The notes under the pieces: generated by a model | Databases searched by the model: none | What the model was told of the DNA's origin: nothing | The model's input: only the letters and a program-made list of their open reading frames with translations | Part shown: in pieces, positions 1 to 59,439 of the stretch | Position numbering within the stretch: position 1 is the stretch's first letter | Layout of the letters: each line of letters opens with the position of its first letter | Program-made: the position numbers and the translations under genes | Assembly (NCBI GenBank): GCA_000091205.1 | Contig: AP006496.2 | Direction: 5' to 3' (one strand) | DNA from: Cyanidioschyzon merolae | Lineage: Eukaryota | Length of the DNA stretch: 64,000 nt

Positions 1-1529
1 GAACACTTGCCGTCTTTGCCACTGTACTCTCGTCATCGTCCTGTTGGGCAAACACTGTTCCTGACCCATTTCCCCTCCTCTGCTTCTTTATTTGATCTTC
101 TCCGTTCGGCTTTAGTCGACAAGAGGATTTTTTCGTTCTTTTCCGGCAGTCGGCGATGTCGGGCCTCGAAAATCCTCGGCGTCCATGTCCATACCTTCTC
201 CTTCGGTTTCTTATTTCTTCAAATCAACGCACTTGCTTATGCCCTTAGATGAAGACATTCCCTGCGGGAGAAGGGCTTGCGGACGGCAGACATGGTATGC
301 CCCACTGTGTCGCCGTGTGCTGAACGCTTCAGCGATTCGCCCAGTGCAGCGATTATTGCGTTTCACGATAGAAAACACTCCTTCGATGGCATTGAAGCAC
401 GTAGAGCACCGAGGAAGGAAAAGCAGCTCTATCCCTATAGAACCGGCAAAATCCCGAACGCAAGGGGAATGGTGAAATGTCACCTGACTTCAGGGAGAAG
501 CCTTCAGTGATTTGGCAAAGCGAGTGTGATTGTGTGAGCCTTCTCTACGAGAAAGACTGCGGCCGCCAAAAGAATCCGCTGCATCTAGAATCGATGATGA
601 TTTCCGAGTTATCTTCGAGTTCGATCGGATATTCAACGGGCTCGCTGCTCCTGGACTATCCGAGCACGCTCCGACCGTATCATCCAAAGGAAGTCGCATC
701 GATTGAAGAAACAAACCGACGTCTCTCTGCTGCATATCGATACTACCTATCCAGGCACGTTGTTGTAGTTACGATTTCGGTGGAAGATGGCCGTGCGTGG
801 AACTGGACCCCATTTTTGCGACTGTATCCCAGTATTTTTAGGACAACAGGAACAAGCTATCGAGAAACAGAGACGCCCATGGTGGCTACTTTAGTCGCTT
901 TCGCTTTCAGTAAAGTCATCGACGAGTCATTTTCTACCATTGGCGGCAAGCACGCAATAAGAATACCCGTTTTTGGCGCGGAGCGCATATGCTTCTTTCT
1001 TTCCGTGTTCCTATATCATCTCTGTATTGTTGCATGACTGATCTGAAGGAGAAAAGTAGTCCTCCTTGAGCTGTTCAGTGCAGAATATATCCTACATGCA
1101 ATTCGTCTAGGATATATACAGTACATTCCAGCATGATTTCGATCCCATCCTATACATCGCAGCTGGGTTGGAGCGTAAATGAGTTGAGACACTTTAGGAG
1201 GCAGTACTGACGCGCGCTTCGGTCCCTGCACTTCCCTATTTATCTAGGCTTGTTCCAGATATACAGCCTCGACACTCAACGTGCACCAGTGAGAACTTAC
1301 GGATGCGTACTTATTTTCATGATTCTCCGGCATAGTTTCGGAGTCACTTTTTCGAGGCCTTACTGCTAGAACGCTTTGCGACGCCCTCGAACAAAGATGC
1401 GTGAATTAAGCGATATCGTTAATCAGTAGGTACTTACCAGATTGTACCCCCTTCTTTCCTTACGTGTAGCACCCTCAGATGACGCATGCTCCAAGTTCAC
1501 AGTCGTTCTATTGTAAGGCAACTCGTTGG

Positions 1530-2660
1530 CGCAACAATGCGCGCTGCTGAATTGAAGAGGAGGAGAAATTCTCCACTTCGTCCATGGTCGAGCTCATTGC
1601 ATGCATATGCTTAGAGTTCACTGAAATATTCGTGTGAAATAATGAATCCCGTTTGAGACGCAAATCCTTTCCTCATTGCAACCATAGACAAAACGGCATT
1701 CCACAATAGCGCGACGCCTCTCAACGGATATGTTCTCGGATGCTTCCGTTTCTTTTCTTTGCGTGGTAAAGGGTTCTGGACTCCGGCTTGAGTCATCGTA
1801 GCGATCGCTATTCGTGCAGAGTGCGTTTCCGCTGTATTCGAAATGTGCGTAGGGAGGAGTCGACGTTTCTTGACTTGATCTCGAGTCTAGATTTTCCTCA
1901 TGGTACGTTTTTCACCATGGACAGCATCGCGTCCCATAAACTCTCTTCTGTTCGAAAAACAGCAGAGAACGGAGGGTGAGTCATCATATTCAACCCCATT
2001 TATTCTGCATCTATCAAACCGATAGAGGACGTCATCGGGGCCGTGAAATGAAGCAGATGGAGAGATTTCGAATGGGACAACTGCACCTAGTTATGCTGCG
2101 GACGGATTACCCGGCGAGGGGATCGTCCAGAAGAAGCCCACGATCGAAGAGCACGACACCAGGCGTGAATACCAAGGGGCTCATCGCGAGGAGCCCTCTT
2201 TACCCGCCGAGGGCCTGTACCAAGCGATGAAGCAAGCATTCACGCGTCACGTGACGGTCCTCAGAGGAGGAGAAGGTCCAAATGATATATAGGAACACCT
2301 TAGCAGGTTCAAGGGCGCCCGTACGCGGGACGCACCGAGCCTGCACACAGAGAAGATGAAAATAGGAAGCGAAACGAAGATCGCATCTTGGGCCAGTCCA
2401 TTTCATCGTTCGACAGCAACTCGGAATCTAGAAATCAGATCTTGAACGCTGCCACCGATACCCTTCGACTGCTGACAACGCTGCTGGAGGGAAAGGAAAG
2501 ACCGGCGTATTTAAAGCCAAAGGTCAGCGAAGCGGAAAGGAGGCTGTCGCAGAATTATCCCCCAACGACTAATGTTCGTGGCAATGGGAAGAGACCCAAA
2601 ATTTAGTTTCTACACCCGAGTCAGCTGACTGGACCGGTTCCACTTTATTCTGAAATAGGT
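1530..2660 (+). mobile_element. Miniature, internally deleted TnpB/Fanzor-like derivative (family 2, copy a)
   Basis: 5-prime block caacaatgcgcgctgctgaattgaag, shared with the other family-2 copies. Mid block ...gacaaaacggcattccacaatagc. 3-prime remnant RNQILNAATDTLRLL (degenerate D-x-NAA-x-NIL RuvC-III motif) at about 2430. Conserved tail ...gtggcaatgggaagagacccaaaatttag...tacacccgagtcag...ttattctgaaatagg ending at about 2655. Confidence 0.6.
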
Positions 2661-2859
2661 GTGAAGCGATGCTCACTTTGGATGAAGTTTAAGGAAACTG
2701 ACCGCTCGTTGCGTCGGGGCGATGGATCTTTGTCGACGCCTTCCACGACCGAAAAACCAACCAAGCCCACAACCACTGCTTCAATGAATAGCGCAACGAA
2801 CGCTCTGCAATCAGCAATTCAAAGAACACCACACCTCATCCGTCACTACATAGAGAAAC

Positions 2860-4287
2860 TCACTGTCCACATCCCGGAACAGAGGGCGCGAAGCCTATGG
2901 ACGAATTCTCGCGATTAAAGACAGTTGTAAAACGCCGGAGGACAAGGTCGCCAATCACAACAAGTGCACCTGTGGGCGAGAGAACCTCTAGGCCCAAGCA
3001 ATAGTACAGCTCTCCAGCGAGTTCCACTCTTATTAGATATGTGTCGCGCGAGATGTTCAGCGTCGCGTCACTGTCGAATCTTATTGTTATGTCCGGGAAA
3101 CTACGGTATGCGGCATCCGAGAGGAGCGTACAGCTAGGTGCCTCCGACCAGAACCTGCTATGGCACAGGTGGGCGTCAGCTGCACAGACAACTGACTTGA
3201 TTTCCTGAATCACTTTGGTGAATGCTTCGCCACCTAACGCCATAAGCGTTGTGCCAGAGTCGAAGACCACTGGATCGGCATATGAGCGCAAGTTGGATCC
3301 ATTTGGGCCAACACGGAACTCCTTGACGCTGGCTGCATAATATGGGACAAGGCTCCGAGGAAGATACCGTACCCAAGAGTAGGGTCCCCGTCGAAAACGC
3401 GTGTCCGCCTCTGCGCCGAGAATGAGAGCGCCACCGGTATCCGATAGGCAAATACTAAAGATATTCCTCGCAACCACGCCCTCCTCGAACATGATGTCGA
3501 ACAGCGGTTTCGGGCATGATGGAGAGCATGCTGCTTCCTGGAATGCGAGCCCCCAAATGCCACCCACATTGCGCCGTTCGAACGTTGGAGAGTCATACAA
3601 AATCGCCGTGTAAAATGCTTTTCGAACGCTCAGCCCTGCACCGGGCAAACTCACAGGGCCTTGATGCAACGCTCCAAACACGTAGGAACCGTCCGCATAC
3701 GACAATATCATGCCGCAGCTTTCAGGATCAAGAAACGAGCAGCATGCTTCGTTCCTGCGAGAGCATGCTCCACAGAGCGCGCTGCAAGTCCCCGATAGAC
3801 ACACGCTGGAGTCGCTGCAGGGAACCCTGGTGGCATTCCAGTCCGATAATCGTATAATGCCGTCACTCCGCGGACAGTCTAGGCATCGTGACACTGCGAA
3901 GGCCAGGTTGGCGCTCCCCGTGTCAATCTGAACGCCAATCTCCTGACCATCTACACCCAACCGGGCGTAGTATTCACCAAGTGGAAGAAGCTCGCCGTGT
4001 AGCGGCTCAACGGCGCCAGCGCGGAATACCGCAGCCGCAGAGGCCCGCTGCACCGCTGGAGCAAAGTTCGCTCCGCCTGCACTCGAACCAAGCGCACCCT
4101 CGAGCCCGGCCCGCACGTGCTGGTACTTGAGCAAAGCGGGCCGCACTTCGGCAACTTTCTGGTGGCGTTTCTCGAGGGGTAGCACCCGTGTTGCTGCAGC
4201 GGCCGCAAGAGTCAGCGCCTCACAGAGCATCACTGCCCATAAGAGAACGGCCAACACCAGCCGCACAGCGCTACTAGTCAAGTGCAT
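2860..4287 (-). CDS. Pepsin-like (A1 family) aspartic protease, secreted or vacuolar
   Basis: Both catalytic motifs are present: VQIDTGSANLAF (DTGS) and VVFDSGTTLMAL (DSGT), with the conserved flap and Cys-rich regions. The track ORF 2860..4464 was trimmed to the in-frame ATG (cat at 4285-4287), which precedes a hydrophobic signal peptide MHLTSSAVRLVLAVLLWAVML. Confidence 0.8.
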   Translation of the reverse strand: MHLTSSAVRLVLAVLLWAVMLCEALTLAAAAATRVLPLEKRHQKVAEVRPALLKYQHVRAGLEGALGSSAGGANFAPAVQRASAAAVFRAGAVEPLHGELLPLGEYYARLGVDGQEIGVQIDTGSANLAFAVSRCLDCPRSDGIIRLSDWNATRVPCSDSSVCLSGTCSALCGACSRRNEACCSFLDPESCGMILSYADGSYVFGALHQGPVSLPGAGLSVRKAFYTAILYDSPTFERRNVGGIWGLAFQEAACSPSCPKPLFDIMFEEGVVARNIFSICLSDTGGALILGAEADTRFRRGPYSWVRYLPRSLVPYYAASVKEFRVGPNGSNLRSYADPVVFDSGTTLMALGGEAFTKVIQEIKSVVCAADAHLCHSRFWSEAPSCTLLSDAAYRSFPDITIRFDSDATLNISRDTYLIRVELAGELYYCLGLEVLSPTGALVVIGDLVLRRFTTVFNRENSSIGFAPSVPGCGQ

Positions 4288-4765
4288 GATAACTGATGCA
4301 GAGAGGCTTAAGTTCAGAAAGCTATGACGCCCAGTAACGTGAAGCGTCACGATGAAGCAATCGTATGAGAGAAAATACAGTATGCTACATCGGCGAGATG
4401 CGCTGAATCCGGCACTTGTGGCGCACACTATACGACCAGATTTGTATTGCTGCTGCAGAATCACTGTAGGCGTGCTGGTGATCCGCGGCGAGGGCGTCAG
4501 GGCATGATCACCTTTTGAGAAAACTATGTAATCAAATGTATCAAGCGGACAGGTGCAAATCGATCACAGACAGCATCCTAGGAGCCTCTAGTTTGATGCG
4601 ATTCCCTTTCTGAACATTTATGGAGTCTCCTGTACTAAACGAACCCAGCCTCAGAGCGCTCCGATCGCATTCCGAGGAGGCATTCCAGCTGACTGCGGAC
4701 GTAAAAGCAGGTATATTGCCGCACTGTATGCACATTCGTCGCTGTTTCTGACTCAGAGGCTGCGG

Positions 4766-7880: not shown

Positions 7881-10659
7881 TGGAATCTGGAGGGAAACAG
7901 CTTGCTCTGCCGTGCTTGGTGCCCACAGAAGTTCCGCATGGAACAGAACTGCCGTGCCGATACATCGATTGCGAGCGACGCTTTGAGGGATTATGTGCGG
8001 TTTTATGGTGTAATGTCGATGCATCGAAACAAGCATATCCAAAAGTCCTGTTCAAGGGCTGGAAGCATCAGACTCCAGCAGCGAGGTCGCTACAGCAGCA
8101 ACGAGCGTTATCTCTTTGGCAATATCGCAGAGAGAGCAGGGTGTTACCTAGTATGTTCTCCTCAGCAAAAGGTGTGGCCAACTGTTGCTGGGCTCTATAT
8201 AATGCCCTGAGCACATGGTGAACTCGCGTCTCGCCACAGGAGGCACTTTCTTGAATGTCTTGGTTTTCGTATGACACGTTAAGGCTGGCAAGTTTCGCTG
8301 TAGTACATCAACTTTCGACCCCCTTTAGTCTCCACGCGAGCGTTCCGAGTCCACCATAGGGAGCTACGATGCGAATAGGTCGTACGACTCCTGTCCAATG
8401 CTGTAGGATGGAGGGACCTCTGTTAGAACGCCGCCGAAGACTCCCATACGACCTCTTAACAAGGGACGTTGACAGCACCGTGGTTGGAGCGCGACGACTG
8501 TCAGAGCACCAACGGTGTTCTTCATTGAGAAGTTGCAGAACAAGTTCAGCACCGCAGTATTCACAGAGAGTGCTCGACGAGCTCTGTCAAGGACGCTTCT
8601 CCACTCGGAACTGATGCACTGGGCTGGCCGCCGCTAGCACGGTCCGAGCGGCACGGGCATCTGTGCAAGCCGCTCGATCCAACAATCCTACACTACAAAA
8701 CATGCAATCTGTACGCTTACGTCATCCGTAGAAGGCACCAGACCGCGCCTTGAAATGCTGTCCTATGTGGTGACTCACTCGCACATTTTGCCAGCAACAA
8801 GGCGGCTCCGATGCATGTAGTGAATCCGCTCAATGAGGACACTTCGATGGTGTTCGCTGGCCCTTGTATGCAGGTAAGCGTGCAGCTCGAAATGGAAGCC
8901 TTTCCCTGCCGGTCTGTGAACATGATAGCTCAATGCATACGCCATCGATTTCAGGAGGATATTGCAAATCGGCTACAGGAACGGCATCGCGAACCCAAGG
9001 AGCAACAGGCGGGTCAGTATGACCGGAAACAGCAGCGCACGTCCATGGCCCTCCTCCCGGGAGCGCTGGACTGTTTAGAGGTGGGATTTTCGCCTCGCGT
9101 TTATTCTGCCGTGGGTCTTTCCAATAGTTGTGCCGCTATCTTGTCTTTACCGCGCAGTATAGAGCGAAACTATGCGCGCCCGGCAGGGTTACTATACAGG
9201 TTGGGTCGTTCGCACTCACCTGGGTATGCGTTGCCTACACAAAGTACGGAGCGCATCCACGAGTGTCTCCGAAGCGGGTGCCGCAGTTCGTTTTTTTCGA
9301 ACGGCATTGCAAGTATCCTGTGCTTCATCCGATCGAAAGCACCATCCGCGAACACCTTGTGATACTGGTCTCTATCACTCAACCGATCAGTTCCATACGG
9401 AAGCGCTGTATAAAAATCAGCGCGAACAGCGTCTGGGGTTCAAAGTCGTTAAAGGGTCGGCCCCTCTCAAAAATTCACTGAATGACTGCAGCTCAATGAA
9501 TCTGACTGAGTTTTCAGTTGCCTACGACCAGAGCGCAAGCAGGTCTTTCACAGTGACGAGCGTGCTGTTTCCAAAACCATCAAGGATCATCTTGTGGATT
9601 CTTTCTTCCCCGGGAGGCCGTCGAGCGGAAACTGTGGAGCGTTGCTTTAGCGATGCGTGGGTATTCCCAAAGGAACACGTACCACCATACCAGAATAAGC
9701 ACTGATGTGATTATCGCTGAGTATGGACGGAATGGTAACAGGCACCAAGAAAATGTGATGCAAGCTTCACCAAAAAGCAAAATAGTCCACGGCTGGCACC
9801 AGGGAGGTTTCAGTGCTCGGTAAACTTGCAGAGCATCCTGAGCAGCTGCACGAACTGTGCGACGCCGGAGCGGAGGTTCACGTAGCTGCAAATGTAGGTG
9901 GGTAGAGCCCCGTGACTTGCCACGGCACCTCAGAGACAGCCGCTTTACAGGACATCTCAGCCGTTTTAGGCGGGCACAAGCCTTTGGAACATATGAGGTT
10001 CGGTGAGCCGCACAGTCTGCAACAGCGAACCCGAAAAACAGCGTCCACGGCATGCTTTCACAGCGCACTATCTGGCTGCCTTCCGGAGCGAATGGAAGCC
10101 CTGAGTACTCAATTCGAGTACTGTTCCCACTTCTGTTCCCAGCTTGTCTGACAAAGCCAAGAACGCCTCCTGTAACGCATTCAACGAGCAAGGTAAATGC
10201 TCCAACGCTTCGGAGCGAGGCAGGACGTGCTCCTCAAACGCTTTTTTTCACCTAAAGCTAGTGGAGCTCGTCGAGTGAAATTATGCTCTACAGCGGCAGC
10301 GTCTACGCCGCTGTAAACCTTAAAATAAACCGACCTCTGTGGTTAACAGGTTTCGCTTACGTAAAGATGCACAGGCAAGCGCAGCGTCCCGAAGCAAAAA
10401 CGTTCCAGAACTCTAATATATGCTCAGCAGTTGTTGGTATCGGATGGATCCTGCCGTAGTGCAAGCAGTCCGCACTTTGGGATTCTTTGATCGCGGCCTC
10501 AGTGTCCGAAGTGACGCTGGACCGAATCTTTTCTCTTCAAGCAGCACATAATCGAGTAGTGAACATGTTCCATAGCTAGTCTGTCTGCAGCCGCGCTGTC
10601 TGCATTCGACACGACTCGGGCAGAAAGCCTCTACACCTATGTCAGAGTACAACAGAACA

Positions 10660-11700
10660 AGCCCACTCATCTATCTCGGGTGTCTACACTAGAATATGGG
10701 TCTTCCGACCGCCATCAACATTAGCCTCTGCAGTTTTTTTCTGTGACAGCTTCCTTTTCCATTCTTGTCTCCGGCTTCAAACGCACAGGTCTTTCGCTTC
10801 TCTACAGCTCGGTTCACAGCAGCCGAAGGATGTTTACGGCAATGTGCAAGTCCCGATTTCGCCGTTTCAGGTCGCTGTCTAGGCCTTTCATCAACAGACC
10901 GAAGTTGCTAACTACACATTGCTTGTCACTTTGATCTTCTTCGTATACTACCTTGGTGTGCACTTTTCTGTGGCGACGCGTGGCTGTCGTCAGGTGTTCC
11001 CATTTGTCCACCATAGCTTCTCATCCAAGGGCCGCTCTGTAGCACGTGAACGCCTGCTCGATGTCTCGGTACATGCCGTTGTGAGGTACACAGAGATCGA
11101 CACGATGCATTTCTCCGTTTCCGCGCATGGTACCGCACTTAACGATACAAGGCTTCTTCTGTACGATCCTTCAGCGAGGGACTTGTGCGCTACACATGCG
11201 GAAGCGCACGCAGTGCCATTCTGTTGAGGTTTCGTGGAACGCGATGTTGTCTATGGCGAAACACGGACCGTAACGAAAATCCAGGCTAGAGAAGGAGTCG
11301 AGGACCTTCGATCTGTGTACACTCCTTTCGTGCAAAGCGGTGAAGCGTTCTCCACTATAATTGATCGCTGCGACAACTCAAGTCCGAGTCCAAGCCCCTT
11401 TTTCATGCAAACAGAAGAGAAAGGGGCCCCTGGGAGCATATCCCGTAAGTGCTATCATGCTGTTGATGTCGAATGCCGTTTCTTCGATGGCTACATGGAA
11501 AGTAGGATACGTCTTTCGAAGGAAGTCGATTATTTGGCATGAGAAATTTAGTGAACGGTCCGCATTAGCTTGTGAACAAGTTGTCAAGGGACAACGTCGA
11601 GTTCGTTTCATCGTCAATCCAGCGACCCGCATTGCTGCGCTTTCAGTCTGCTTTGAAACAGAAATAGAACGGTTTGAGAATCCGTAATTTGAACATGCTT
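10660..11700 (-). mobile_element. Miniature TnpB/Fanzor-like derivative (family 2, copy b)
   Basis: On the minus strand: 5-prime block gcaatgcgggtcgctggattgacgatg. Mid block FHVAIEETAFD (track ORF 11378..11632). 3-prime remnant KRRNRDLHIAVNILRLL (track ORF 10814..11014). Conserved tail ctaatgttgatggcggtcggaagacccatattctag...agacacccgagatag. Confidence 0.6.
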
Positions 11701-12105
11701 CGCGTAAGAACAGGGAAAGAGTGTAGGCTCATGCGTATGAGTTTGATATGATATCGTTCATGTTTACGAATCCTTCTTCAAGGGCATCGCAACGTATCTT
11801 ATTTCCGGTGACGTAAAGAATTCAAGCGGCAGAGCCTCGGAGCCGTTCCAGAAGGACGACCGAGAATCCTGAAACTACGTTTGCATCCGTAAACCCTTAT
11901 TGATGCTCTTCAATTATAGAGGCTTTTGCATCTACGAAAAGTTTGAGAAAAATCGAAAGAGAACAATAAAGCGTGCCGTTCTTTATTCCATCTCAATTTA
12001 ACCGAAGTCCAGTGGCTGCGGGCTTGCAAGTAGCGTCGTGCGTTTGTCCAGCCTCGGTTACGCTGTTCGTCGCTGCAGTGCGTTTGGTTGGTGAGTGTTT
12101 TTTCC

Positions 12106-16629: not shown

Positions 16630-17089
16630 AGCTGGACGGCAGCAACGAGGCTTTTCAAAAAGATGCCGGTGGCGGCGCTCGTTCCGCTGCTGCGCAATGG
16701 CTTGGCGGCAGTGGCGGCTATACTCGTGTCAGATGAAAATAGAATACGAAAATACTTGCTTTGTTCTTAACTTTCGATTTTTCTTCCGGACTTTCTAGAT
16801 CCACAGACTCGGCATACGAATCACAGCAATAGGGGCTTCCGGATAAACATCTGCTTTTAGAAGTCTGGTTCTTCTTCCCGGAGTGGCTCATTCGACTCTT
16901 TGGCGCTGGAACTCGTTACATTACCGGAATCAAACTGATTCGCGACGCCCTCTAAAAAGGGTTTCTAAATAACCGATATCATGATCGAATTTTTACGTAA
17001 AAAACTCCACGCTTCTCGATTCTTTAGGAATGGCGTGCTCAAATCAGACTTTACTCAAGTTTTCCGCTTTCTGTATCAAGGAAACTTGA

Positions 17090-19215
17090 TGGTGCAGCGA
17101 TGCGCGCTGCTGGATAGGTCAGGAAACGTAATCGGCATCGTCACTCGACGATTTCTTCGCAAGCTCCTGCAGAAAGTTCATCGAAATCCTCATATCAAGC
17201 AACGGATTCCGTTCGCACGACGAAGCCTCCTCGTATCGTTGTTCGCAACGAAACGGCATTTGTCAGCAGCCTGATACCCCTCACGTGATATGCTCCCTGA
17301 GGTTGCGCTTTCTTTTGTCTGCACAGAAAAGCACCACAGACTCGTGCCTAAGTCATTCTAGCGACGGCCCCCAGTACAAAGTGTTTCACCGCTTTGCCAA
17401 GGGAGCATAGACTGATAGAAATCCTCGACTTCTTCGCCGGGGAGGTCTATGAGCGGAAAAGTACGCATTGCGACTCTGAACCATCTCAGCGTCATCTCTC
17501 TCGGCGCGTGATTGAGTCGTTGACGTAAAAGTGAATGCACGAGGACGTAGTCATCAGCCTGGACGACGTGAAGGTTCTCTCTGTGACAGGTGCTTCTTCG
17601 CAGATCATAGGCTCGTCGGATGAAAAGACAGTGAGAAGCCTCAGTCGAGTACCTCCCAAAGGAGACGATGGCGAGAAGATGATGGATCTGGCGCCTTCGA
17701 GTAACCCGCCAACGAGAGCGATTCTACACTTTCGCATCTGAATTGATGCTCCGCAGCTCCCGTAGGGGAGAGATCTTCTCCAGTTTTGAACGCACTTACG
17801 GGTCGCTGCTACGACAACCTCGATTCGCGACTTTTTCGCTTCATTGTGGAGATGAATGCCTGTGCAAAGGCGGCGTAGATGCGTTCGAGGCTCTAAAAGT
17901 AGCGTGGAAGAAGAATAGTAGCTGATTGATAGCATGGAGTTCATGAAGCGGATCGCGTACACGTCGTCCAAAGATTCGGCGGAACTCTTGAGTCGCTGCA
18001 GGAAAGCCAAGCGACGGAAGGCAGAGAAAACTGCGAATGGGAAGAGAAGGGGACGAACGAGACGGCCTCGGTGCGACGAAGAGGCGCGGTGTCCTTCCTC
18101 GAGATTGATGGTGTGGGAGTAGGCATCATGATCAATAGCGAACGTCTTGCAACCGTCCGACCTGAGACGAGCCCCTGATCCCAAGAGGAATCACGCCGTG
18201 GAGCAAGGAGGTATACAGAAGTGTGGCCTCGCGAACTTGGCCTCCATAGCGATTTGCATCGGTCTGGACCCAGAGAGAGCGAACCTCCACACCTGTGCTT
18301 TCATGAGTTTCGAAGAAAAACCCGATTCACCTGGGATAATCGACGACTTACTGGAAGCTCGAATTCCGTCCTATTCGTGTTTCAACTACAATCTTAGGTC
18401 CTAAGCGTGTGCCTAGCATCTTCGTCTCAGCAAACGGGAGCAAACTAGAAAATAGTTCGACCAGCAGGCAAGTGATACGGAAGGGCGTCACAGGCTCCTT
18501 AGCCGCAATGTCGCAATTGAGTGGACCATGTGGAAACTGTGCCCATGACTGTATATATTTCTTCAATGACCGTTACCCTGGTAGGCACGTTTTGTGGGGA
18601 GGGCACTCAGGAACCAAACAGCATGCAGGGACGCCGACTGTGAGCTATTGAATGGACCAGCGTGTGCTTGCACCTGCTGCGGACGGAGTGCTCTAGGATG
18701 GGACCTTTCAAAAGAAGTACCTGATCGTAGAGTACGGTTGTGGGCACGAAACTGGCAGAGGGCATCGAAGAAAGCCCTTTGTAGCCATGAGGAACGCGTC
18801 TCGAGCGGTGAAACAAGCGCTCATGCATTACAGGACGGCTCGCAGCGATGGAGCTGTTGTGTAGAGGTGTGAAAAACTGGCCACAGCCAATTTTCAACGC
18901 CGCCAAGGCCACAACTATGCTATTTACAAATATGATGGAAATGACAAGCGGAGCGGAAATTGCAGCTTCCTTCTGTGCATGAAGTACGTCGAAAACAAGC
19001 GCAAGCAGCGAAATCCTGACCTTCATATTGCTATGAGCATCCTCCAACTGCTCATAACCGAGCTGCAGGGCAGCGAGAGACCGCCATATTTGACGTTCGC
19101 AGAAGAGCGAGAGGAAAAGGAATCTTTCGCTAAAATGTCCCGTAAATGCTCTTGTCAATGACAATAGGAAGAGATCCAAACTTAAGAGTGGACGGCTATG
19201 CTCTGAGATCTGTCC
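17090..19215 (+). mobile_element. TnpB/Fanzor-like derivative (family 2, copy c), longer, with two tandem 3-prime (RuvC-III) segments
   Basis: 5-prime gcgatgcgcgctgctggataggtcagg, encoding QRCALLDRSGNVIGIV. This resembles RuvC-I DPGNTNIITIA of family 1. Mid block aaacggcatttgtcagcagc. A first RuvC-III-like stretch PIFNAAKA at about 18890, a second RNPDLHIAMSILQLL at about 19010. Tail tgtcaatgacaataggaagagatccaaacttaag. Confidence 0.5.
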
Positions 19216-19328
19216 CATTTTATTCGAACGTGGGTGTGGGCTTTGAAAACGGCGCTGGCAACAGTGCTACCGGGAGAAGCATCTGCCGCGCTAAGTAAGA
19301 GCTTTTGGCGGGTTCACTTGAGGCCGGC

Positions 19329-23159: not shown

Positions 23160-26100
23160 GCTCCGCGGGCCGCGTGCTTTCCGTACTGGAGCCAGTGCCT
23201 CCTAAGAAGATCGCACTAGTTGATCGAACCCTCGGAAGCGCACATGCTATCTAGGGAAGCATCGGTCCATCTTATAAAGCCTAGAATCAAAGCCTTCTCT
23301 GCGAGTCATGCATGCAGACGAATTTGAAAATTTCAGCCAAATCCAATTGGTGCGCGAGACGCAACGCGAAAGGCTAACATCGCTAATTCGACCAAAACTT
23401 TGAAAATGAAATCCTGACAGGGGCGCTTCATAGGGTAGACGGAGAGCCGCCGGTGCCTGCCACAAACTGTACGGGGATTCCAGTCTCATTCTGCGCGTTT
23501 TTCATAATCTCGCCACGAGCATTCCGTTTTCCACTAGCTCCTGGCTGGCGGGGCACCAGAATGCAGGTTACCCACCGCGCGTTACCATATTCCAGTAACT
23601 GCTCGCTCAGATATTGTAGTGTGTGGCTGTTCGTCAAGCAGTCGCAGGCCAAATGCCCCCTGGTCACGTTCCTTCACTGCTCAGTATGTGAACGATAGCG
23701 CGTATGGTTCGAGTCGAGAATATTCATGCGATCCTGCGTGGCGCGTTGCAACACTACTTTCGGGTCAGGCTGACATTGTTTAATAACATGCACGCTCTGT
23801 TTCTGCCTTTCGATTGCTTTTCCAAATTTTTTCAGATACTTAGGCTCGGCATTCGAATTGCCGTCATAGGGCTTATGGATTCAGGTTTCGTTTTAGGATT
23901 CTTCGTCGTCTTTTCAGTGCGGCTCCTTCGGAGATTTGCGAATGGAGCTTGCGTTTTCATAGGAATCAAGATGATTCGCGACGAATCCGAATTGCAGTTC
24001 GTAAAAAACCGACACGATCTCCAATTGATACCAACATGTCTCCATTGTTCTCCTGCCCTTACGTGTAGCATGGGCAAGTCAGGCATTCTTCTCGTTTTCG
24101 ATGTTTCTGTTTCACGGCAAATTGTGGGCGCAACGATTCGCACCGGCGGAGTGGCGAGGAAAAATACTTGACGTCTTCCCTTGACTAATGGTACACAGGC
24201 TCATGCCAAAGGTTCACTGAACTTGTAACGTCAAACATTTGACTCTCTTCGAGAGACAAATCCATCTCTCGAAGTGACCGCGAAGATGCAGTATTCCAGC
24301 GCAGCAAATTACATTCACGGGATACGATCCCATAGGCTCCTGTCTCATTTGTTTGAATCGGTAAGGGTCTTGGACTGGGCTTGAGTCATCTTAGCGATTG
24401 GCTCCAGTGGAGAGTGCGTAACCATTTTGCGCGAAGGAAGCGGGATTGGATCGAAGCATGTCGACTTGATCTCCAGCCTTTTTGATCCTTCCAGTTCGAG
24501 TTGCGTCATGCCCAACATCGCATCCGACAAATCCTCATTGGAACGGAAAGGCGTGCACTTGGGCGTGCAGCAGTCAGAGTGCTCGCAAAGTGGACGAGAA
24601 AGAATCCCGTGCTCGTAGGGTACGGTACTAGTTGCGGAAAGAGAGGGAGGCATCGAAGTGGACATCCTGTACTCGTCAAGGGCATGCACCGAAAGTCGAC
24701 GTAGACGCTCACACTCCACTAAGCGACACTCGGAGGCGGATTCGTGGTGAAACAGTGGAGAATCCTGACCACAGCCATGTTTCACCTGTTCGGAAGGTGC
24801 AACAATGCTGGATTCAAATACGATGAATGTGCCAAGCGAAGCGGGGACCGTAGCTTGCACATGTGATAAAAATGAGGCGAAAACAGCTGGAAAATCTATA
24901 TCGTTGCCTGAGCGCAAGTGTGGAAACACTTCGACTGCTCGTAACAGAGCTCGGGAAAAAGGAAAGCATTGCGAATTTAAAGCCTGAGATGAGAATGAGA
25001 GAAAATGGAAGCAGCCGCAGGAATGGTTCCCAACAAAGCTGACTTTGATGACAGTGGGAAGATATCCATACTTTATTGTGTGAGTCTTCTAAGTATAAAA
25101 GACTGGTTCGATTGTATTCTGGTATAGGTGTTGTACTGCTGCGCGGTCGGGCGTGGCGTGCAGAAATCGAATTTCGCTTGCTGTTCCGGAATCCGCGATT
25201 GGCGAAATAACTCAGGACGAATTTCGATTTCTTGAAATTCAATTTTGACGCATGCCGCGCGACCGCGAAACCGGCCTCCGCTTAGTCGGGCAGTGGTTCG
25301 ATCCGCGTGTCGCGGCTTCGGATGTCTAGTTGCCCGTGTACGGCGCCCTCGCTCCAACACTGATGCAGCCCGGTGCTTGTAAATGGTTGCGCAGTCCTTC
25401 GAATGCATCCGTGCCACTGCCCGGAATCCGCTTAGCGCATGGGTGCTAGTTTGCAATCTGGTATCGGTGTGTCAACGCAGGTCGCAGCGCTGGAATTGGT
25501 AGTTTTGCGCCTGCTTCTGTACATGCAGATGTCCTTAACGAGTAGAGCGAACTCTTGTTTCAGAAGTTCTACTTTCTAAAGGCGAATGCCTTGCGCGGAT
25601 CGGCGCTCCCAAACTTAAATCTCCGTCCTAAATTCCCTGGAAAACTCATATTTTCAAGTAAAGAGTTTCCCGTATAGAGATTTCATGTAATATGCCACGC
25701 GTCGTGTGGGTTGAAGGTACGGCGACTATCCCCATTGTTGCTCGATGAGCTGCGCTTCGGTTTCCTTCTATCTGTTATACTAAGATTCAGTATGTTTCAT
25801 GCTCCAAGGGCGCAGCGGACTCCGAGGAACGCAGTTGGAGCGTTGGAGAGTAGAGATCGAGCTCTTCGTGTCATGGGGGCCGTATGAGTCGCGGGTTTCA
25901 CATGCACGGCGCTCGCTGTACTGCGTAGTAGCTGCACCTTACCAACCAACGCATTAATCGGTCGAATTCGGGGGCAGCGGGATGCTTTATGGTTGGGAAT
26001 CGATGAGACTAAGCAGAGATTTCGTGGAAACGCGTTTGTAAACTGAGCCCAGGGAAGCAACCACCTGAGCACCTCGCCAAATACTCAACGTTCCACTGTT

Positions 26101-41142: not shown

Positions 41143-41699
41143 CCTGGACGTAGCCTGAGCCTCGAACCCAAGCTCTGTGGCCTTTGTTCCTATGCTCGTC
41201 CGTTTGCAGGCTGTCTCGAATGCGACGACCGCTTATACGCAGCGCAGCGGGAGCTGGACTGTATTGATATGTAGGAATATGTACTTATGCGAATACTTCA
41301 TGACAAGAGTAAAAGAAGTTGGACACAAGCAATGCGCATCGACGGCTTGCGAGCGATGTACTCGACCCTCGTTCACAAAAAATGCAGCACTGAACTGCTC
41401 GCTCTGATCATGTATTTCGAAATTTTCCATAATTTTTTGGATGAGCAGCCTCAAACTTCGCAGCAGATCAATAGGGACGTACTGACTCAAACGCGGATTG
41501 AGGAAACTCACCCGTCTTTTCAATGTGGCCTCTTCGATCACTTGCCACTGAATTTCGTTACGTCACGGGAATTAAGATGATTCGAATTACCCCAAAAAAG
41601 GTCCCTGTAATAAAGGATAGCATTACCCGTTTCATACGCACAAGCCTCCACTCCTCGCCTTTTTACGTATAGATGCTCAAATCACGTGTTGTTTTAATT

Positions 41700-42700
41700 T
41701 GCGACTTTTTCATCGCAACTCGTGTGCGCTGCCACTCGAGCCGCAGTATTGGCGACACAAAACAGTGAACGCTGTCCCTTGACGTCTTCAGCACATGCTC
41801 ATGCCGAAAGTTCTCTGAAATTTTCATGTCAAGTAATTGATTACTTTCGAGAAACACTTACTCCTCACTTCGTGGCTCTCGACAAAACGGCATTCGACAG
41901 CAGCATACTACTTCAAATGGGATCTGCTTCCACAAGATTCTGCGTCTTCCTACTACAAGGAATATGGTCATAGACGGTGCTTGCAGTCATTGCGGCAATC
42001 CCTTGCACTGAAGAGCTCGCCACCGCATCAGTAGAAGAGGATTAGACGAGTCGAAATTTCCCGACTTGATATCGAATCTGTATTGTGCTTCCGTTGTTAT
42101 TTTTACTATGGAAAACATCGCGTCCGAAAAGTAGTCTGTTGAATGTAACAGTGTGCACCTGTGTGAGCAGGGGACAGAGTAGTTGTCGAAGGGATCGCGC
42201 AGAAGCAGCTCGTCCTTGTAGGGTGCGGCACTGGTGGCTGAAACGGAGGAGGTCATAGAGGGATGTCCCCTGTACACGTCAAGGGCGTATACTGACATGA
42301 AGTAAACGTTCATGCGCCACCGGTCGACGCTCGGAAGATGAGATCTGGTGAACATATGTGTACAACTCACCACAGCAATGCATCAGCGCTGCGAAGGGTG
42401 CGTCATAGCTGTATCCATAGAAGATGAAAATGGCAAGAAATGCATAGATTCTTACTTCCGCATGTACGTGAATTGTGCCGGCAATATCGGACAGCGATTA
42501 AACCAGGACCTGAACGCTGGCATCAACCTCCTTTAAGCACTGACAACGGAGCTCGAGGGTAAGGATAGGCCGGCATTTTTGAATCCAGATACAAGAGAGA
42601 GGAAAATGAAGCAGACTCAGAAAAAGCACGAATGGTTTGTGTTGATGGCAAAGGGAAGAAAACAAAACATTAGAATGCACGCCTGAGCTACCTAGGAAGG
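41700..42700 (+). mobile_element. Miniature TnpB/Fanzor-like derivative (family 2, copy d)
   Basis: Mid block SLKFSCQVIDYFRETLTPHFVALDKTAFD (track ORF 41722..41973), about 75 percent identical in nucleotides to copy b. 3-prime VIAVSIEDENGKKCIDSYFRMYVNCAGNIGQRLNQDLNAGINLL (track ORF 42348..42536; the RuvC-III motif DLNAGINLL is preceded by Cys residues). Tail ctgacaacggagctcgagggtaaggataggccggca...tgttgatggcaaagggaagaaaacaaaacattagaatg...cacgcctgagctacctagg. Confidence 0.6.
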
Positions 42701-44280
42701 AATGTTCCCGCTTCGTGTGTCATGGTTGTATTCGTCGCTCATTTGCGTTGCAGTTGGAGTTCAAGACGCCCACGGTGCGCCTTGTTGCTGCCAAAATGAG
42801 TTGAACCGCGAGCCACTGACCTAAACAATAGACCTGGGAATGCAATGGCGAGCGCTGGACTTCTGGGTGTGCCGCTCGACTGGAGCGCTTGGGGCATGCG
42901 CCACGCAAGCGCGCATCATCGACGGGGCGGCACTTTGTTCACTGGGTATTAGAAGTGTTGCAGCTTTCCGCTATAGGTCCGGTGAGGAAGCCACGACGCC
43001 CTTAAACGTTGAAGTGCAGTCCAAGAGGCGGAGATGTGAGCACAGGTGCTAGCGTGTTCAGAAGAAACTGGGCCCCGGCGCTAACCTTCCGGGACGCGGT
43101 AGACGTCCATCGCGACGAGCATCCGATCCGCATGGACTCGACCAAGACAACATATAGCGCAGCGGTCTGAAAAACGCGTTCTGGATCCCCATGCACTGTA
43201 ATGCCGTGTGAGAATCTCGGGCGAACCGATGTCTCTACTTGTGAATCAGAATATATGCGCCCTTAGATTGGTACTGGGGTTGCAATTCGTCGGCAGAAAG
43301 TGACGCTTTCGCCCCAGAGATGCACTGCAACCAATAATGCGACTCTAGTGGAGTCGCTTTTTCTCTGCATGACGACTGCAGCAGCGGCGGAGAATCCAAT
43401 GTTGCAGCAAGCGCCCGCTATTGGCTAGGTACAAGGAGAGTTGACGGATGAATCGAAGCGCGTTCCGCCGACCGCCTTTGAATGATGGATAGCTATCTAG
43501 TGTATGAGCAGTACAGAAGGATATGGGAAGCAGCAGCCTGGAAAAGTACTTTATCGAACAATGGTTCGTTGAACGCTGGTACCCGTCCGGCGATGCGTAG
43601 GATACCGCATGACTGAATCGCCGAAAGAATATATGTTGTTGTCATTCTCCTCCCTTTTCTTTGTGAACTGCGGGTTCGTCCGTCTTGGAGAATCCCACAC
43701 ACAGGTCAAGCATTTCTCCAGACTCAAGTCTCTTTCGGCGAAACAAATACGAGTGCTGTCTATGTTAGGAGTTCGCGTTTCAGTGCGATATCAAAAATGT
43801 TCTAGTCAAGTGGCGACGATTTGACACAGAAACCTGCTTTATTCTTTCTCCATACGTGTCTCCTCAATACCTTTCATGTCAAGGGCATGAAACTTCAAAT
43901 CCTCTGACTAGATTGATAGTACTTGCGAGAGAACACATGCGGTTGAATGAATTTACGAATTGGCAATCTTGTGTGCAGTGTGCGATGAGCTCTACTCGGG
44001 ATGAAAGCCCTTCAGGATAGGGACCCTGAGATGCGCAGCTCATCCACCTGCTGCCCACAGAATGACTGACTTAAAGAGGTGAGGCAGTTTTTCGCAAGAT
44101 AGCGATGGCTGCATATAGTCCTTCCAGGATCTTCCTCCAATCTATAGGAAACATTCCCTTTGTTGGACACAGGCGAGAAACACAGATAAAAGAAAAAGGG
44201 TCTGATCATACACGCATACCGGAACTCATTCGTCTAGATACACCAATGCAAGCACCAGAGAACGCCATCTACTTCTTCTA

Positions 44281-45576: not shown

Positions 45577-46639
45577 ACAAGCTGTCGACAACTCACGATA
45601 GCAGCGACACGATACTCCTCTGCGCCAGCGTCAGGTATAAAAATGGAACGCTGTATTTCCGTTACGTTTATGCATGTCGCGTTTTCCGTGCATTTTTAGA
45701 TACATAGCCTTGGCATTGGAAACGCAGGTATATGTGCTTACAGATTCATACGAAGTTCTAGGATTCTCGGTTGTGTTCTCAGAGTGGCCCCTTCGACACT
45801 GCAGCTGGAATTCGATTCGTCACCCTGGTTCAAGATGATTCACGATAGCATCGAACAAGGGTTCATAAAATAACCGATGTATTATATGATGCTTTTGTGT
45901 AGGCTTCAACTCTTCTCCTTTGCTTATGTGCAGCACGCACAGATAACAACTTCTGCAAGCTTTTTACCTTTTCGTTTGAAGGGAGCACGTTGATGCAGCC
46001 ACTCCTGCCAATAGATTGACGAGGAAACCTATGAATTGACCTAGTCCCTTGACGATATTTTCACGAGATCATCCCGAACGTTCAATGCATTCATCACGCC
46101 AAAAAAATTGATTCCTTTCAAAACACGGATGCTCCGATCTGTATCGTCACCTGTGATTTTTGGAATTCGACATTTGCTTGATTCCAGTCTGGGGATATGA
46201 TCCCAAACGCTCCCTGTCTCTTCTGGTTGAGTGGATAAGAGTGTTGGACTTTGACTTGATTCACAGCAGTGATTGCTTTCCGAGGCGAGTGCGTCACCGT
46301 CTCTCATATCGGTAGCGTCGACGAACCGAAAATTCTCGAGTTGTTCTCAAGCCCTGGTTTTCCATCATGTACTCGTTCAGTAATCGACAATATCGCATTC
46401 CACAAATCCACTATCGACAAGAACAGCGGACGTTTCCGCGTTCAGCATACAGATTGGTCGCCAAGGGGATCCTTTTGAAGAAACCCGTGAGCGCAGGATG
46501 CGACACCGATAGCGGAAACGGTGGAAGGAATCGAGGGTAGTCTGCTAAAGCCTTCGACGCCATATATTTGACGATGAAGCAAGCGTTCGCTCGCCACAGT
46601 GCGAAGCTTGGAGCAGGATCTTTGGTGAATACATATGGG

Positions 46640-47010
46640 AACACCTGTCGACCGTCAACTGTCAACGCTGCGAACAGCTAACCGGGGGATGCATCCAATG
46701 AAGATGCAATTGGAGAGTGAAGCGCATATCGCAATTTCCGCCTGCGCAGGAAATATACCGACAACAGCTGGAAACAACTCCATTGGGAATTTAAGGCTGC
46801 CATGAACATGCTTTCAGTGCAGAAAATGGAGCTGGAGGTGAAGCAGAGGACGGTGTATTTAGAGCCTTGAATAAGGAAGAAGAAAAGGAATCAGTCGCAG
46901 ACAAGGCCCATAGATACTTTCGTTGATGACAATGGGAGGAGGCCCAAACTTTAGAATGTATGCCCGAGTGAGCGTAATGGGGTGCTTCGAATTAATTCTG
47001 AAATAGGCAT
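46640..47010 (+). mobile_element. 3-prime terminal fragment of a TnpB/Fanzor-like element (family 2, copy e)
   Basis: Tail cgttgatgacaatgggaggaggcccaaactttagaatgtatgcccgagtgagcg...ttaattctgaaataggcatc, homologous to the tails of copies a, b and d. Degenerate NAA-like stretches at about 46665 and about 46775. Confidence 0.5.
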
Positions 47011-47175
47011 CTAGGGCCGTCCTTTCCATGAGATCAAATCGATGATGGACCGAACGAGCGACACAAAATGGGATCCACTTCGGTGCCTGTGTTCTCCGAG
47101 AGAGCGTGATCGGTAGCCTCCTGAGGTCCATTTCAACGCTCTCATTTCCATGCAGCATGATCCAGCCGCATCACA

Positions 47176-59115: not shown

Positions 59116-59439
59116 AAGCACAAAAATAAACGCGTATCTCTGCGCAGCTCAGAGAAACTCCAACGGTGTCACCGCTTGCAGCAGCGAATCGAGGAGAGTT
59201 TTCTCGGAATGAACTGCGAACGTGCACCGGGTCGCGACGGTGCTCAGCTGGAAGTCGCCGCCGCCGCCGCCGCCGTGCTGCACATCTGAATGGATTGACG
59301 GGCGATACAGGATGTTGTTGTGGTACAGTCTTTCATCTCCATTGTGTTCCATCCCCGGGGTTCTTGTTATCAAATGCTTTTCGCAGTTTATAGCAGATTC
59401 GGCACAAGTGCGTTCATTTAAAAGAAGTACAAATTCCAA

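What the first reader, a model, noticed from the sequence alone, without database searches (positions are those of the whole stretch)
2380..2665. Shared about 130-nt non-coding 3-prime tail with terminal motif TTCTGAAATAGG across the TnpB-like remnants: candidate omegaRNA scaffold / right end
The same block recurs downstream of the degenerate RuvC-III codons in copies a (2500-2655), b (10660-10800, minus strand), c (19150-19215), d (42540-42700) and e (46900-47005). It is ...ctggag-g/a-rich...agaccg..., then aatgttgatggcaatgggaagagacccaaaatttaga, then tacacccgagtcag, and it ends in ttctgaaatagg in copies a, b and e. A non-coding terminus conserved across many decayed copies is expected for a transposon right end that doubles as a guide-RNA scaffold. 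The 16 to 20 nt immediately beyond the terminus would be the guide and target-adjacent region.
Basis: partly seen in the sequence, partly recalled or inferred. Interest (0 to 1): 0.75.

Follow-up and report, generated by a model that had tools for sequence, protein, structure and literature searches.

The report
Dead mariner–Fanzor transposon right ends

Summary
The repeat is real. The window is C. merolae 10D chromosome 14.

Each copy is a non-autonomous internal-deletion derivative of a Tc1/mariner–Fanzor1 transposon. The layout is: left TIR, truncated DDE_3 transposase, last ~180 codons of Fanzor1 (no RuvC-I), stop codon, ~56 nt non-coding, TA.

Most of the "130-nt non-coding tail" is former coding sequence. 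The tail is no better conserved than the rest of the element (0.595 against 0.565–0.622 pairwise identity), so in this window it decays neutrally.

Intact 3.5–3.6-kb relatives exist in metagenomes: a full transposase plus a 745–800-aa Fanzor1 whose predicted fold matches SpuFz. Their right ends carry an invariant, right-end-specific UACGCC box that pairs with the TIR tip plus TA (GGUGUA). A seventh pair covaries. A conserved C precedes the left TA, the analogue of SpuFz1's CA+TA = CATA TAM.

This matches the published Fanzor1 guide-RNA layout. Verdict: a new member of a known kind, of modest interest.

The parts
1179..2663 (+). Copy a, whole non-autonomous element: degraded left end, truncated DDE_3 remnant, private 119-nt insertion at ~1963-2082, Fanzor C-terminal remnant, tail.
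   Evidence: Self-BLAST and tblastx collinearity; alignments; end coordinates.
10632..12011 (-). Copy b, whole element on the minus strand. Its right end is at 10632 and it keeps GGTG|TA.
16719..19238 (+). Copy c, whole element, interrupted by an unrelated ~1.2-kb insertion at about 17441-18644.
23755..25132 (+). Copy f, whole element.
41362..42730 (+). Copy d, whole element.
45621..47011 (+). Copy e, whole element.
1515..1950 (+). Copy a: decayed remnant of a Tc1/mariner-type DDE_3 transposase, cut off right after the second catalytic D motif (DNIASHKS in the consensus).
   Evidence: Consensus translation hits PF13358 DDE_3 at 30.6 bits (cut-off 28.6), profile positions 2-102 of 146.
2083..2606 (+). 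Copy a: decayed last ~180 codons of a Fanzor1 gene. It has the RuvC-II E, a CxxC...CxxC zinc ribbon, RuvC-III (remnant codons at 2430-2474) and a basic C-terminal tail. RuvC-I is absent. The start coordinate is approximate.
   Evidence: Consensus hits PF07282 Cas12f1-like_TNB at 34.3 bits (cut-off 26.3). Open frame in the 8-copy consensus. BLASTP to published Fanzor1 CRe-1 and PUl-1 at E ~1e-7.
2604..2606 (+). Conserved TAG, the ancestral Fanzor stop codon. It is kept in copies a, b, d and e.
2611..2616 (+). TACACC, the decayed form of the invariant right-end box TACGCC. In intact relatives the box pairs with the terminal GGUGUA.
2636..2661 (+). Right terminal inverted repeat (26 nt).
   Evidence: Consensus left against reverse-complemented right end: GTCAGATTAAAATGGAA vs GTCAGAATAAAATGGAA, 16 of 17, 1 of 5000 shuffles. 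Explicit TIRs in intact relatives.
2662..2663 (+). Remnant of the TA target-site duplication, now TG.
   Evidence: All intact relatives end GGTG|TA and have TA at the left junction. Window copies.
2664..2683 (+). Where a guide would lie if this copy were ever transcribed as a Fanzor guide RNA. This is inference only. The sequence is unique to this copy.
   Evidence: By analogy with PMC10711439 (guide ~15 nt beyond the TSD). Flanks beyond the TA are unrelated among copies.
10632..10870 (-). Tail of copy b, from RuvC-III to the terminus.
19005..19238 (+). Tail of copy c.
24893..25132 (+). Tail of copy f.
42497..42730 (+). Tail of copy d.
46778..47011 (+). Tail of copy e.

Best explanation
The block is the right end of an extinct, non-autonomous Tc1/mariner-type DNA transposon that carries part of a Fanzor1 gene.

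The autonomous ancestor (~3.5 kb) had this layout: TA | 26-bp TIR | DDE_3 transposase | ~750-800-aa Fanzor1 | stop | UACGCC box | 0-36-nt spacer | TIR | TA. One internal deletion joined the transposase, just after its second catalytic D, to the last ~180 codons of Fanzor. That 1.38-kb derivative kept both TIRs, so it could be moved in trans, and it multiplied. Six copies lie in this window. All have since decayed to ~59% pairwise identity.

The tail is therefore former Fanzor C-terminal coding sequence, then ~56 nt of non-coding sequence ending in the right TIR.

Inferred from intact relatives and from published Fanzor1 biology, and not shown here: in the living ancestor this end was transcribed as the 3' part of the guide (omega) RNA. 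The scaffold closed with a 6-7-bp helix between UACGCC and the TIR tip plus TA (GGUGUA). The guide began right after the TA. The C preceding the left TA was part of the TAM (about 5'-NCTA).

In this window the feature has no present function.
For: Identity of the element:
- The host is C. merolae 10D chromosome 14.
- Six collinear copies share a common terminus.
- The consensus hits DDE_3 and Cas12f1-like_TNB above Pfam cut-offs.
- The same deletion junction is seen in metagenome copies.
- TIRs are supported, and TA is present on both flanks of intact elements.

Intact relatives:
- Complete elements L016 1301-4779 and L020 22-3634 carry a full DDE_3 transposase (90-98 bits) and a Fanzor ORF.
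- The Fanzor signature D-X(177-196)-TT-XX-CxxC-X(64-72)-CxxC-X11-RD is met.
- BLASTP to published Fanzor1 CMe-1 gives E 8.5e-12.
- The AF2 model's top seven PDB matches are all Fanzor1 (SpuFz E 1e-12, TM 0.44-0.55).
- The proteins are under purifying selection.

Dead in the window:
- Decay is uniform, tail 0.595 against 0.565-0.622.
- No frame is preserved.
- RuvC-I is absent.

Guide-RNA inference:
- TACGCC is invariant in 16 of 16 intact-type right ends. It occurs once per element and never in the left 200 nt or the interior.
- It pairs with GGUGUA. The 7th pair shows UA6/AU3/CG3/GU1. 96% of cells are paired against 22-57% in slid registers. The covariation score is 0.132 against 0.036, reached by 1 of 500 shuffles.
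- The helix is in the MFE of 8 of 13 single folds.
- The block GA(W)SMCCCMMCRCT is conserved whether it is coding or non-coding.
- C precedes the left TA in 5 of 5 intact-type and 11 of 14 derivative junctions. This parallels SpuFz1's conserved CA plus TA = TAM CATA (PMC10432273).
- Published Fanzor1 reRNAs include the TIR and TSD in the scaffold (PMC10711439).
Against: - There are no expression data of any kind.
- Folding energies of the last 120 nt are unremarkable, with z from -1.3 to +1.9.
- Only one base pair covaries. 3 of 16 sequences are mismatched there, and the sequences are related, so the shuffle control overstates the significance.
- RNAalifold finds no further conserved helix.
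- Synonymous variation is not suppressed at the ORF's 3' end.
- Sequence and profile searches against the PDB found nothing, and Rfam has no match.
- The TACGCC box could be a DNA-level signal instead.
- The left-junction C could be a transposase target preference rather than a TAM.
Confidence: 0.75

Rival explanations
1. The tail is only a transposon end plus a 3' UTR, and no guide RNA was ever made from it. On this view the conserved TACGCC box and the upstream block are DNA-level signals, such as a subterminal transposase-binding site, a polyadenylation or termination signal, or a target-primed repair signal. The complementarity to GGTGTA would then be incidental.
For: Fold energies are no better than shuffles. 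There is a single covarying pair with 3 of 16 mismatches. No other conserved helix is found, and synonymous variation is not suppressed at the ORF end. TIR and TA alone explain the common terminus.
Against: The box is strictly right-end specific and has no inverted counterpart at the left end, which is unusual for a transposase-binding site. It is complementary in register to the TIR tip plus TA. The 7th pair changes on both sides. The associated protein is a bona fide Fanzor1 by fold, and every Fanzor1 tested so far uses a right-end RNA that includes the TIR and TSD (PMC10711439, PMC10432273).
Confidence: 0.2
2. The six tails in this window are living guide-RNA (or other small-RNA) genes of C. 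merolae, kept by selection and served in trans by a Fanzor encoded elsewhere, for example by CMe-1A.
For: Two CMe-1A Fanzor1 copies lie in the same window. Window tails still keep 5-6 of the 7 helix pairs. ORF-less 'ghost' elements carrying omega-RNA regions exist for SpuFz1 (PMC10432273).
Against: The tail decays at the same rate as the dead coding parts. The TACGCC box is mutated in all six copies, and the TA is lost in four. CMe-1A is unrelated at the DNA level and has a different 3' end. No intact protein of this family turned up in any NCBI-derived record; all hits are from metagenomes.
Confidence: 0.03
3. The copies are not transposons. They are a dispersed family of paralogous host pseudogenes or intergenic regulatory modules that share a 3' end.
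For: Every copy lies between ordinary genes.
Against: The copies contain transposase and Fanzor domains. TIRs and TA are present. The same unit sits at unrelated loci in other genomes, and identical elements occur at different insertion sites (L020/L025 and L015/L016).
Confidence: 0.01

Closest known systems
Mariner-Fanzor1 elements PUl-1 and PUl-2 of Pythium ultimum (Bao & Jurka 2013, PMC3627910)
   Same: A mariner-type transposase gene is followed by a Fanzor1 gene in a ~3.5-3.8-kb element with 24-33-bp TIRs and a TA target-site duplication. The Fanzor C-terminus ends in NRD.NAA.N(I/M)L.LL. Non-autonomous relatives exist.
   Different: Only ~24-30% identity over the Fanzor C-terminal half. 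The host is a red alga (Cyanidiales). The window copies are a specific internal-deletion derivative that fuses the truncated transposase to the last third of Fanzor. This family is not in the 2013 list, which gives only CMe-1 for C. merolae.
SpuFz1 locus and 'ghost' Spu-1 elements of Spizellomyces punctatus (Saito et al. 2023, PMC10432273; PDB 8GKH)
   Same: A Fanzor1 flanked by ~30-nt inverted repeats. Two conserved bases lie upstream of the left repeat and, together with TA, form the TAM (CATA there, about NCTA predicted here). The omega RNA is at the right end. There are many ORF-less derivatives that keep the ends. The predicted fold matches best (Foldseek E 1e-12).
   Different: 15-16% sequence identity. 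No transposase is described in the Spu element. For this family there are no RNA, TAM or cleavage data. The window derivatives keep fragments of both ORFs and are far more decayed.
SfAV Fanzor1 reRNA (Yoon et al. 2023, PMC10711439)
   Same: A Fanzor1 in a TIR/TSD cut-and-paste transposon. The TIR and TSD are folded into the guide-RNA scaffold as a stem, and the guide extends ~15 nt beyond the TSD. This is the arrangement suggested by the UACGCC:GGUGUA helix.
   Different: It belongs to a different, unclassified transposon family in insect viruses. It is supported there by small-RNA sequencing, but here only by conservation and one covarying pair.
CMe-1A, the published Fanzor1 family of C. merolae (Bao & Jurka 2013)
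   Same: Same genome and same protein superfamily. It is also old (~80% identity to its consensus) and multi-copy. Two copies lie in this window (36178-39190, 59323-61543).
   Different: No nucleotide similarity (best E 0.64). It is 3.17 kb with no TIRs reported and no transposase, and it has a different C-terminus and 3' end.
IS200/IS605 and IS607 TnpB omega RNA (reRNA)
   Same: The working principle is the same. The guide RNA is transcribed from the transposon's right end, its scaffold overlaps the nuclease gene's 3' end, and the guide is the flanking DNA.
   Different: Those are prokaryotic elements with a different transposase (HUH or serine recombinase), no TIR/TA duplication, and pseudoknotted scaffolds. 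There is no Rfam match here.

Membership tests
Fanzor1 (eukaryotic TnpB-like RNA-guided nuclease) | Signature D-X(125,275)-[TS][TS]-X-X-[C4 zinc finger]-X(5,50)-RD (Bao & Jurka 2013), checked in intact relatives of the family | tested here: met
   L020, L016 and L010: D (GLDPGR) - 177-196 aa - TT - XX - CxxC - 64-72 aa - CxxC - 11 aa - RD.
Fanzor1 (eukaryotic TnpB-like RNA-guided nuclease) | The same complete signature (all three RuvC motifs), checked in the window copies themselves | tested here: not met
   The window family starts at MEQRALARAAD, downstream of RuvC-I. Only RuvC-II, the zinc ribbon and RuvC-III remain, and they are decayed. The copies are remnants, not genes.
Fanzor1 (eukaryotic TnpB-like RNA-guided nuclease) | Sequence homology to published Fanzor1 proteins | tested here: met
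   L016 Fanzor against CMe-1, E 8.5e-12 over 365 aa. Against the PUl-1 C-terminus, E 3e-6. Window consensus against CRe-1 4e-8 and PUl-1 9e-8.
Fanzor1 (eukaryotic TnpB-like RNA-guided nuclease) | Fanzor1 three-dimensional architecture (WED/REC/RuvC/NUC) | tested here: met
   AF2 model of P0096 has pLDDT 73 and pTM 0.58. The seven best Foldseek PDB matches are SpuFz, PpFz and GtFz (E 1e-12 to 3e-6, TM up to 0.55), followed by Cas12f. Sequence-only PDB searches found nothing.
Fanzor1 (eukaryotic TnpB-like RNA-guided nuclease) | A structured guide RNA encoded at the transposon's right end, including the TIR and TSD, with the guide in the flank | tested here: inconclusive
   In favour: the invariant right-end-specific UACGCC box pairs with GGUGUA, and one pair covaries. 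Against: fold energies are not significant and no further helix is found.
Fanzor1 (eukaryotic TnpB-like RNA-guided nuclease) | RNA-guided, TAM-dependent DNA cleavage | not testable with these tools
   Only an indirect hint: a conserved C before the left TA, analogous to SpuFz1's CA+TA = CATA (PMC10432273).
Tc1/mariner (IS630-Tc1-mariner) DNA transposon | DDE_3-type transposase with N-terminal HTH | tested here: met
   L020 ORF 103-1083: DDE_3 98.5 bits plus HTH_33. L016 ORF 1416-2369: DDE_3 90.1 bits. The window consensus has a truncated DDE_3 at 30.6 bits, profile positions 2-102 of 146.
Tc1/mariner (IS630-Tc1-mariner) DNA transposon | Terminal inverted repeats | tested here: met
   L020 left CAACCGTGAAAATTAAAATGGAACAC against reverse-complemented right CACCAGAGAAAGTAGAAATGGAACAC, 20 of 26. 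Window consensus 16 of 17, 1 of 5000 shuffles. Not detectable in single decayed copies.
Tc1/mariner (IS630-Tc1-mariner) DNA transposon | TA target-site duplication | tested here: met
   TA is present at every defined junction of intact-type elements: 5 left and 15 right, of which one right junction, L029, ends GGTA|TA. In the window the right TA survives in b and d only and the left TA in c and f. No empty site was available to prove duplication.
CMe-1A (published C. merolae Fanzor1 family) | Nucleotide similarity to the 3169-bp consensus | tested here: not met
   Best E is 0.64 between the CMe-1A consensus and the consensus of the six copies, whereas true CMe-1A copies in the window score 78-81% over 2.2-3.0 kb.
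Any curated RNA family (Rfam 15) | Match above the gathering score | tested here: not met
   No match anywhere in the window.

The most novel reading that the evidence does not exclude
The 1.38-kb derivative did not spread merely as a passive deletion product. On this reading it spread as a 'double parasite' that kept exactly the two modules usable in trans: both TIRs for the transposase, and the right-end guide-RNA module (Fanzor 3' end, UACGCC box, TIR, TA) for the Fanzor of autonomous elements. Each copy would then make its own flank-specific guide and gain Fanzor-mediated homing or retention without encoding either protein. The conserved C|TA at left junctions would be the trace of that TAM-dependent retention. 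The intact relatives from hot-spring metagenomes would also be a new, possibly thermostable, Fanzor1 clade with a predicted NCTA TAM.
Probability: 0.15. Interest if true: 0.55.

Novelty: new member of a known kind. Interest (0 to 1): 0.3.

Why it matters
For this window it matters little. These are dead transposon ends and should be masked as repeats, not annotated as RNA genes.

More widely, three points follow.

First, C. merolae is usually described as almost free of transposons, and it was reported as the one surveyed species without MITEs (PMC3964958). It nevertheless holds a second, undescribed Fanzor-bearing family. Together with CMe-1A, that family fills about 23% of this 64-kb stretch.

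Second, the intact relatives recovered here are unnamed, and are seen only in metagenome assemblies. They define a Cyanidiales mariner–Fanzor1 clade with clear ends, a candidate guide-RNA terminal helix and a candidate TAM (about NCTA). All of these can be tested directly.

Third, if these relatives come from thermoacidophilic algae, the nuclease could be of practical interest. That origin is presumed, not shown.

Tried and rejected
- TIR search within single decayed copies and by motif matching: nothing found. The TIR shows up only in consensus sequences and intact relatives.
- Copy c's extra 1.2 kb as retained internal sequence: rejected. It has no similarity to anything and no Pfam domain.
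- CMe-1A identity for the six copies: rejected.
- Exact look-up of the Pol delta ORF in the contig index failed. The organism was identified through cluster look-up instead.
A 3-sequence alignment worked.
- Thermodynamic test of the tails: not significant.
- Suppressed synonymous variation at the ORF's 3' end: not seen.
- The right end as a nested inverted copy of the TIR forming a long hairpin: holds only for L010, L062 and L064, and not for the window consensus.
- Sequence and profile searches of the PDB: no Fanzor hit. The fold search was needed.
- Orthologous loci of the window copies among the fetched contigs: none found. Every hit was element to element, so no empty-site or orthologue test was possible.
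- Palindromic CTAG target preference: rejected. G after the right TA appears in only about a third of sites, whereas C before the left TA appears in ~84%.
Full report
**1. What the window is**

Long intron-poor ORFs encode DNA polymerase delta, a formin, a eukaryotic aspartyl protease, a Rubisco-LSMT-type SET protein and galactokinase. Exact protein look-ups identify the sequence as Cyanidioschyzon merolae 10D chromosome 14, an 852,727-bp record with CMN locus tags. There are no tRNA genes and no Rfam matches. Any "TnpB" here must therefore be the eukaryotic homologue, Fanzor.

**2. Checking the observation**

- A self-comparison finds six collinear, diverged copies (64-74% identity in BLAST segments) of a ~1.4-kb unit.
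- Their coordinates are: a 1179-2663, b 10632-12011 (minus strand), c 16719-19238, f 23755-25132, d 41362-42730, e 45621-47011.
Copy f is new.
- Copy c contains an unrelated 1.2-kb insertion. Copy a has a private 119-nt insertion.
- In a multiple alignment all six tails run in register to ...ATTCTGA(A/C)ATAGGTGT, and similarity then stops. The termini do share one end point.
- The exact 12-mer occurs only in copies a and e. Copy b differs from it at two positions.

**3. What the unit is**

tblastx matches occur equally in all six frames, so no frame is preserved. The consensus, however, restores two reading frames.

- The 5' half is a Tc1/mariner/IS630-type DDE_3 transposase. It scores 30.6 bits against a cut-off of 28.6 and is truncated at profile position 102 of 146.
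- Directly joined to it is the last part of a Fanzor/TnpB protein. It hits Cas12f1-like_TNB at 34.3 bits against a cut-off of 26.3.
- The Fanzor part reads ...VVDIWEHLTTAKCHRCEG...RLCMKC...NRDLNAAINILRLLTTELEGKERPAYL...GNGKRPKL*.
- RuvC-I is absent.

The unit is therefore an internal-deletion derivative that could never have made either enzyme. The same junction is seen in related copies on metagenome contigs.

It is not the published C. merolae Fanzor1 family CMe-1A. I took that 3169-bp consensus from the supplement of PMC3627910. It matches two other places in the window (36178-39190, 59323-61543) but shows no similarity to the six copies.

**4. Intact relatives**

A metagenome scan with the consensus protein gave 50 loci.

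- L016 (1301-4779) and L020 (22-3634) are complete elements. L025 is the same element as L020 at 99% identity, at a different insertion site.
- Each carries a 317-326-aa transposase with a full DDE_3 domain (90-98 bits) and an HTH, followed by a 765-780-aa Fanzor ORF.
- Their ends are explicit. L020 has left tcTA|CAACCGTGAAAATTAAAATGGAACAC and right (reverse complement) TA|CACCAGAGAAAGTAGAAATGGAACAC. That is 20 of 26 matching positions, with TA on both flanks.
- The window consensus shows the same TIR core: GTCAGATTAAAATGGAA against GTCAGAATAAAATGGAA, 16 of 17 at symmetric positions. Only 1 of 5000 shuffles reaches that score.
This is the architecture Bao & Jurka described for PUl-1 and PUl-2.

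The proteins are Fanzor1 by four tests.

- They meet the signature D-X(177-196)-TT-XX-CxxC-X(64-72)-CxxC-X11-RD.
- They align with published CMe-1 (E 8.5e-12) and PUl-1.
- An AlphaFold model (pLDDT 73) has SpuFz, PpFz and GtFz as its seven best PDB matches, with E down to 1e-12 and TM up to 0.55.
- They evolve under purifying selection.

A second protein search found 15 relatives. All are from environmental assemblies and none is named.

**5. Anatomy of the tail**

- In intact elements, and in the 8-copy consensus of the window family, the Fanzor frame stays open to a conserved TAG (copy a: 2604-2606).
  - zinc-ribbon, RuvC-III and basic-tail codons up to 2606;
  - then 56 nt of non-coding sequence: a short linker, the box TACACC (ancestrally TACGCC, 2611-2616), a spacer, and the 26-nt TIR (2636-2661);
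  - then the TA remnant (2662-2663).
- In intact relatives the non-coding stretch is 36-105 nt.

**6. Is the tail specially conserved in the window?**

No. Mean pairwise identity in the tail is 0.595. The other parts of the element range from 0.565 to 0.622, and the flanks from 0.26 to 0.34. The tail is similar among copies because the whole unit descends from one ancestor.

**7. Is there evidence for a guide RNA?**

The published expectation: in Fanzor1 elements with TIRs, the reRNA/omega RNA lies at the right end, the TIR and TSD form part of the scaffold, and the guide runs ~15 nt past the TSD (PMC10711439; PMC10530073; PMC10432273).

Evidence in favour:

- The hexamer TACGCC is invariant among 16 distinct intact-type right ends, whose proteins are down to 38% identical. 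It lies just after the stop codon, occurs once per element, and never appears in the left 200 nt or the interior on either strand.
- It is complementary, in register, to the terminal GGUGUA (TIR tip plus TA). RNAalifold returns exactly this helix and nothing else.
- On an anchored alignment the six core pairs are invariant. The seventh shows U-A x6, A-U x3, C-G x3, G-U x1 and three mismatches.
- 96% of cells are paired, against 22-57% in slid registers. The covariation score is 0.132 against 0.036 +/- 0.020, reached by 1 of 500 shuffles (first pass).
- The helix appears in 8 of 13 single-sequence MFE folds.
- A second block, GA(W)SMCCCMMCRCT, is conserved at nucleotide level whether it is translated (L010, L016, L024) or lies after the stop (L017, L020, L026, L030).

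Evidence against:

- Fold energies do not differ from shuffles, with z from -1.3 to +1.9.
- Only one pair covaries, among related sequences.
- A longer hairpin holds in only three elements.
- Synonymous variation is not reduced at the ORF end.

My reading is that the intact ancestor very probably made a Fanzor guide RNA whose scaffold ended in this helix. This is inference, not demonstration.

In the window the box is mutated in all six copies and 5-6 of the 7 pairs survive. That is what ~75% identity to the ancestor would leave.

**8. Flanks**

Beyond the right TA the sequences are unrelated. That is expected if each copy's flank would be its own guide. At the left junction the base before TA is C in 5 of 5 intact-type and 11 of 14 derivative junctions. 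G after the right TA is seen in only about a third of sites. [quoted passage not shown] It predicts a TAM of about NCTA, though a transposase target preference is not excluded.

**9. Comparison and verdict**

The element works like, and belongs with, the mariner–Fanzor1 elements of Bao & Jurka (2013). Its short derivatives parallel the ORF-less "ghost" elements of S. punctatus. No paper in the searched library describes this family for C. merolae.

It is a new member of a known kind. In this window the feature is a fossil.

Noticed in passing
window 36178-39190 (+), 59323-61543 (+), 129-234 (-): Two decayed copies of the published Fanzor1 family CMe-1A: 80.5% identity over consensus 2-3021, and 77.7% over consensus 785-3020. 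There is also a small fragment. This family is separate from the one in the finding. With the six mariner-Fanzor copies, about 23% of this 64-kb stretch is Fanzor-related repeat, in a genome usually described as nearly transposon-free.
   Followed up: partly
window 17441-18644 (inside copy c): A 1.2-kb insertion with no similarity to anything else in the window or to CMe-1A. Its 230-aa minus-strand ORF (17492-18184) has no Pfam domain. Origin unknown.
   Followed up: partly
window 200-1146 and 61263-61659; L001:6089-7446: Another ~70%-identical repeated sequence, shared between two places in the window and a metagenome contig. It lies outside the mariner-Fanzor copies. Window 61263-61659, however, overlaps the 3' part of the CMe-1A copy at 59323-61543. 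Not identified.
   Followed up: no
window 5605-5888, 7467-7880, 57336-57715: Three tandem-repeat arrays, with periods of about 94, 82 and 98 nt and 77-98% identity, seen in the self-comparison.
   Followed up: no
L024:1733-4789: A 1019-aa open frame whose N-terminus looks like the transposase HTH region (MTYMLDYRIAAMKA..., weak HTH_33 hit) joined in frame to a complete Fanzor1. It may be another deletion derivative or a natural HTH-Fanzor fusion.
   Followed up: partly
L020:48-62 and 3570-3585; L016:1330-1345 and 4705-4720 (approximate): A C-rich motif, CCCC(N)CG(Y), lies just inside the left TIR (ACCCCCCGTC) and ~25-60 nt inside the right TIR (ATCCCCACGCT). The two are in direct, not inverted, orientation. 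Meaning unknown.
   Followed up: no
L010-L031, L060-L064 (metagenome contigs): Intact Fanzor1 proteins of this family (682-814 aa) were found only in environmental assemblies (JGI, ENA, Logan). None has a name and none is in an NCBI genome record. Several derivative copies sit next to Cyanidiales-like housekeeping genes. The clade seems undescribed.
   Followed up: partly
L010:2525-4821, L014, L002: Fanzor-only versions of the element, with no DDE hit upstream and the same right end. L002/L014-type copies carry a frameshift. So several kinds of non-autonomous derivative exist, and all of them keep the right end.
   Followed up: no
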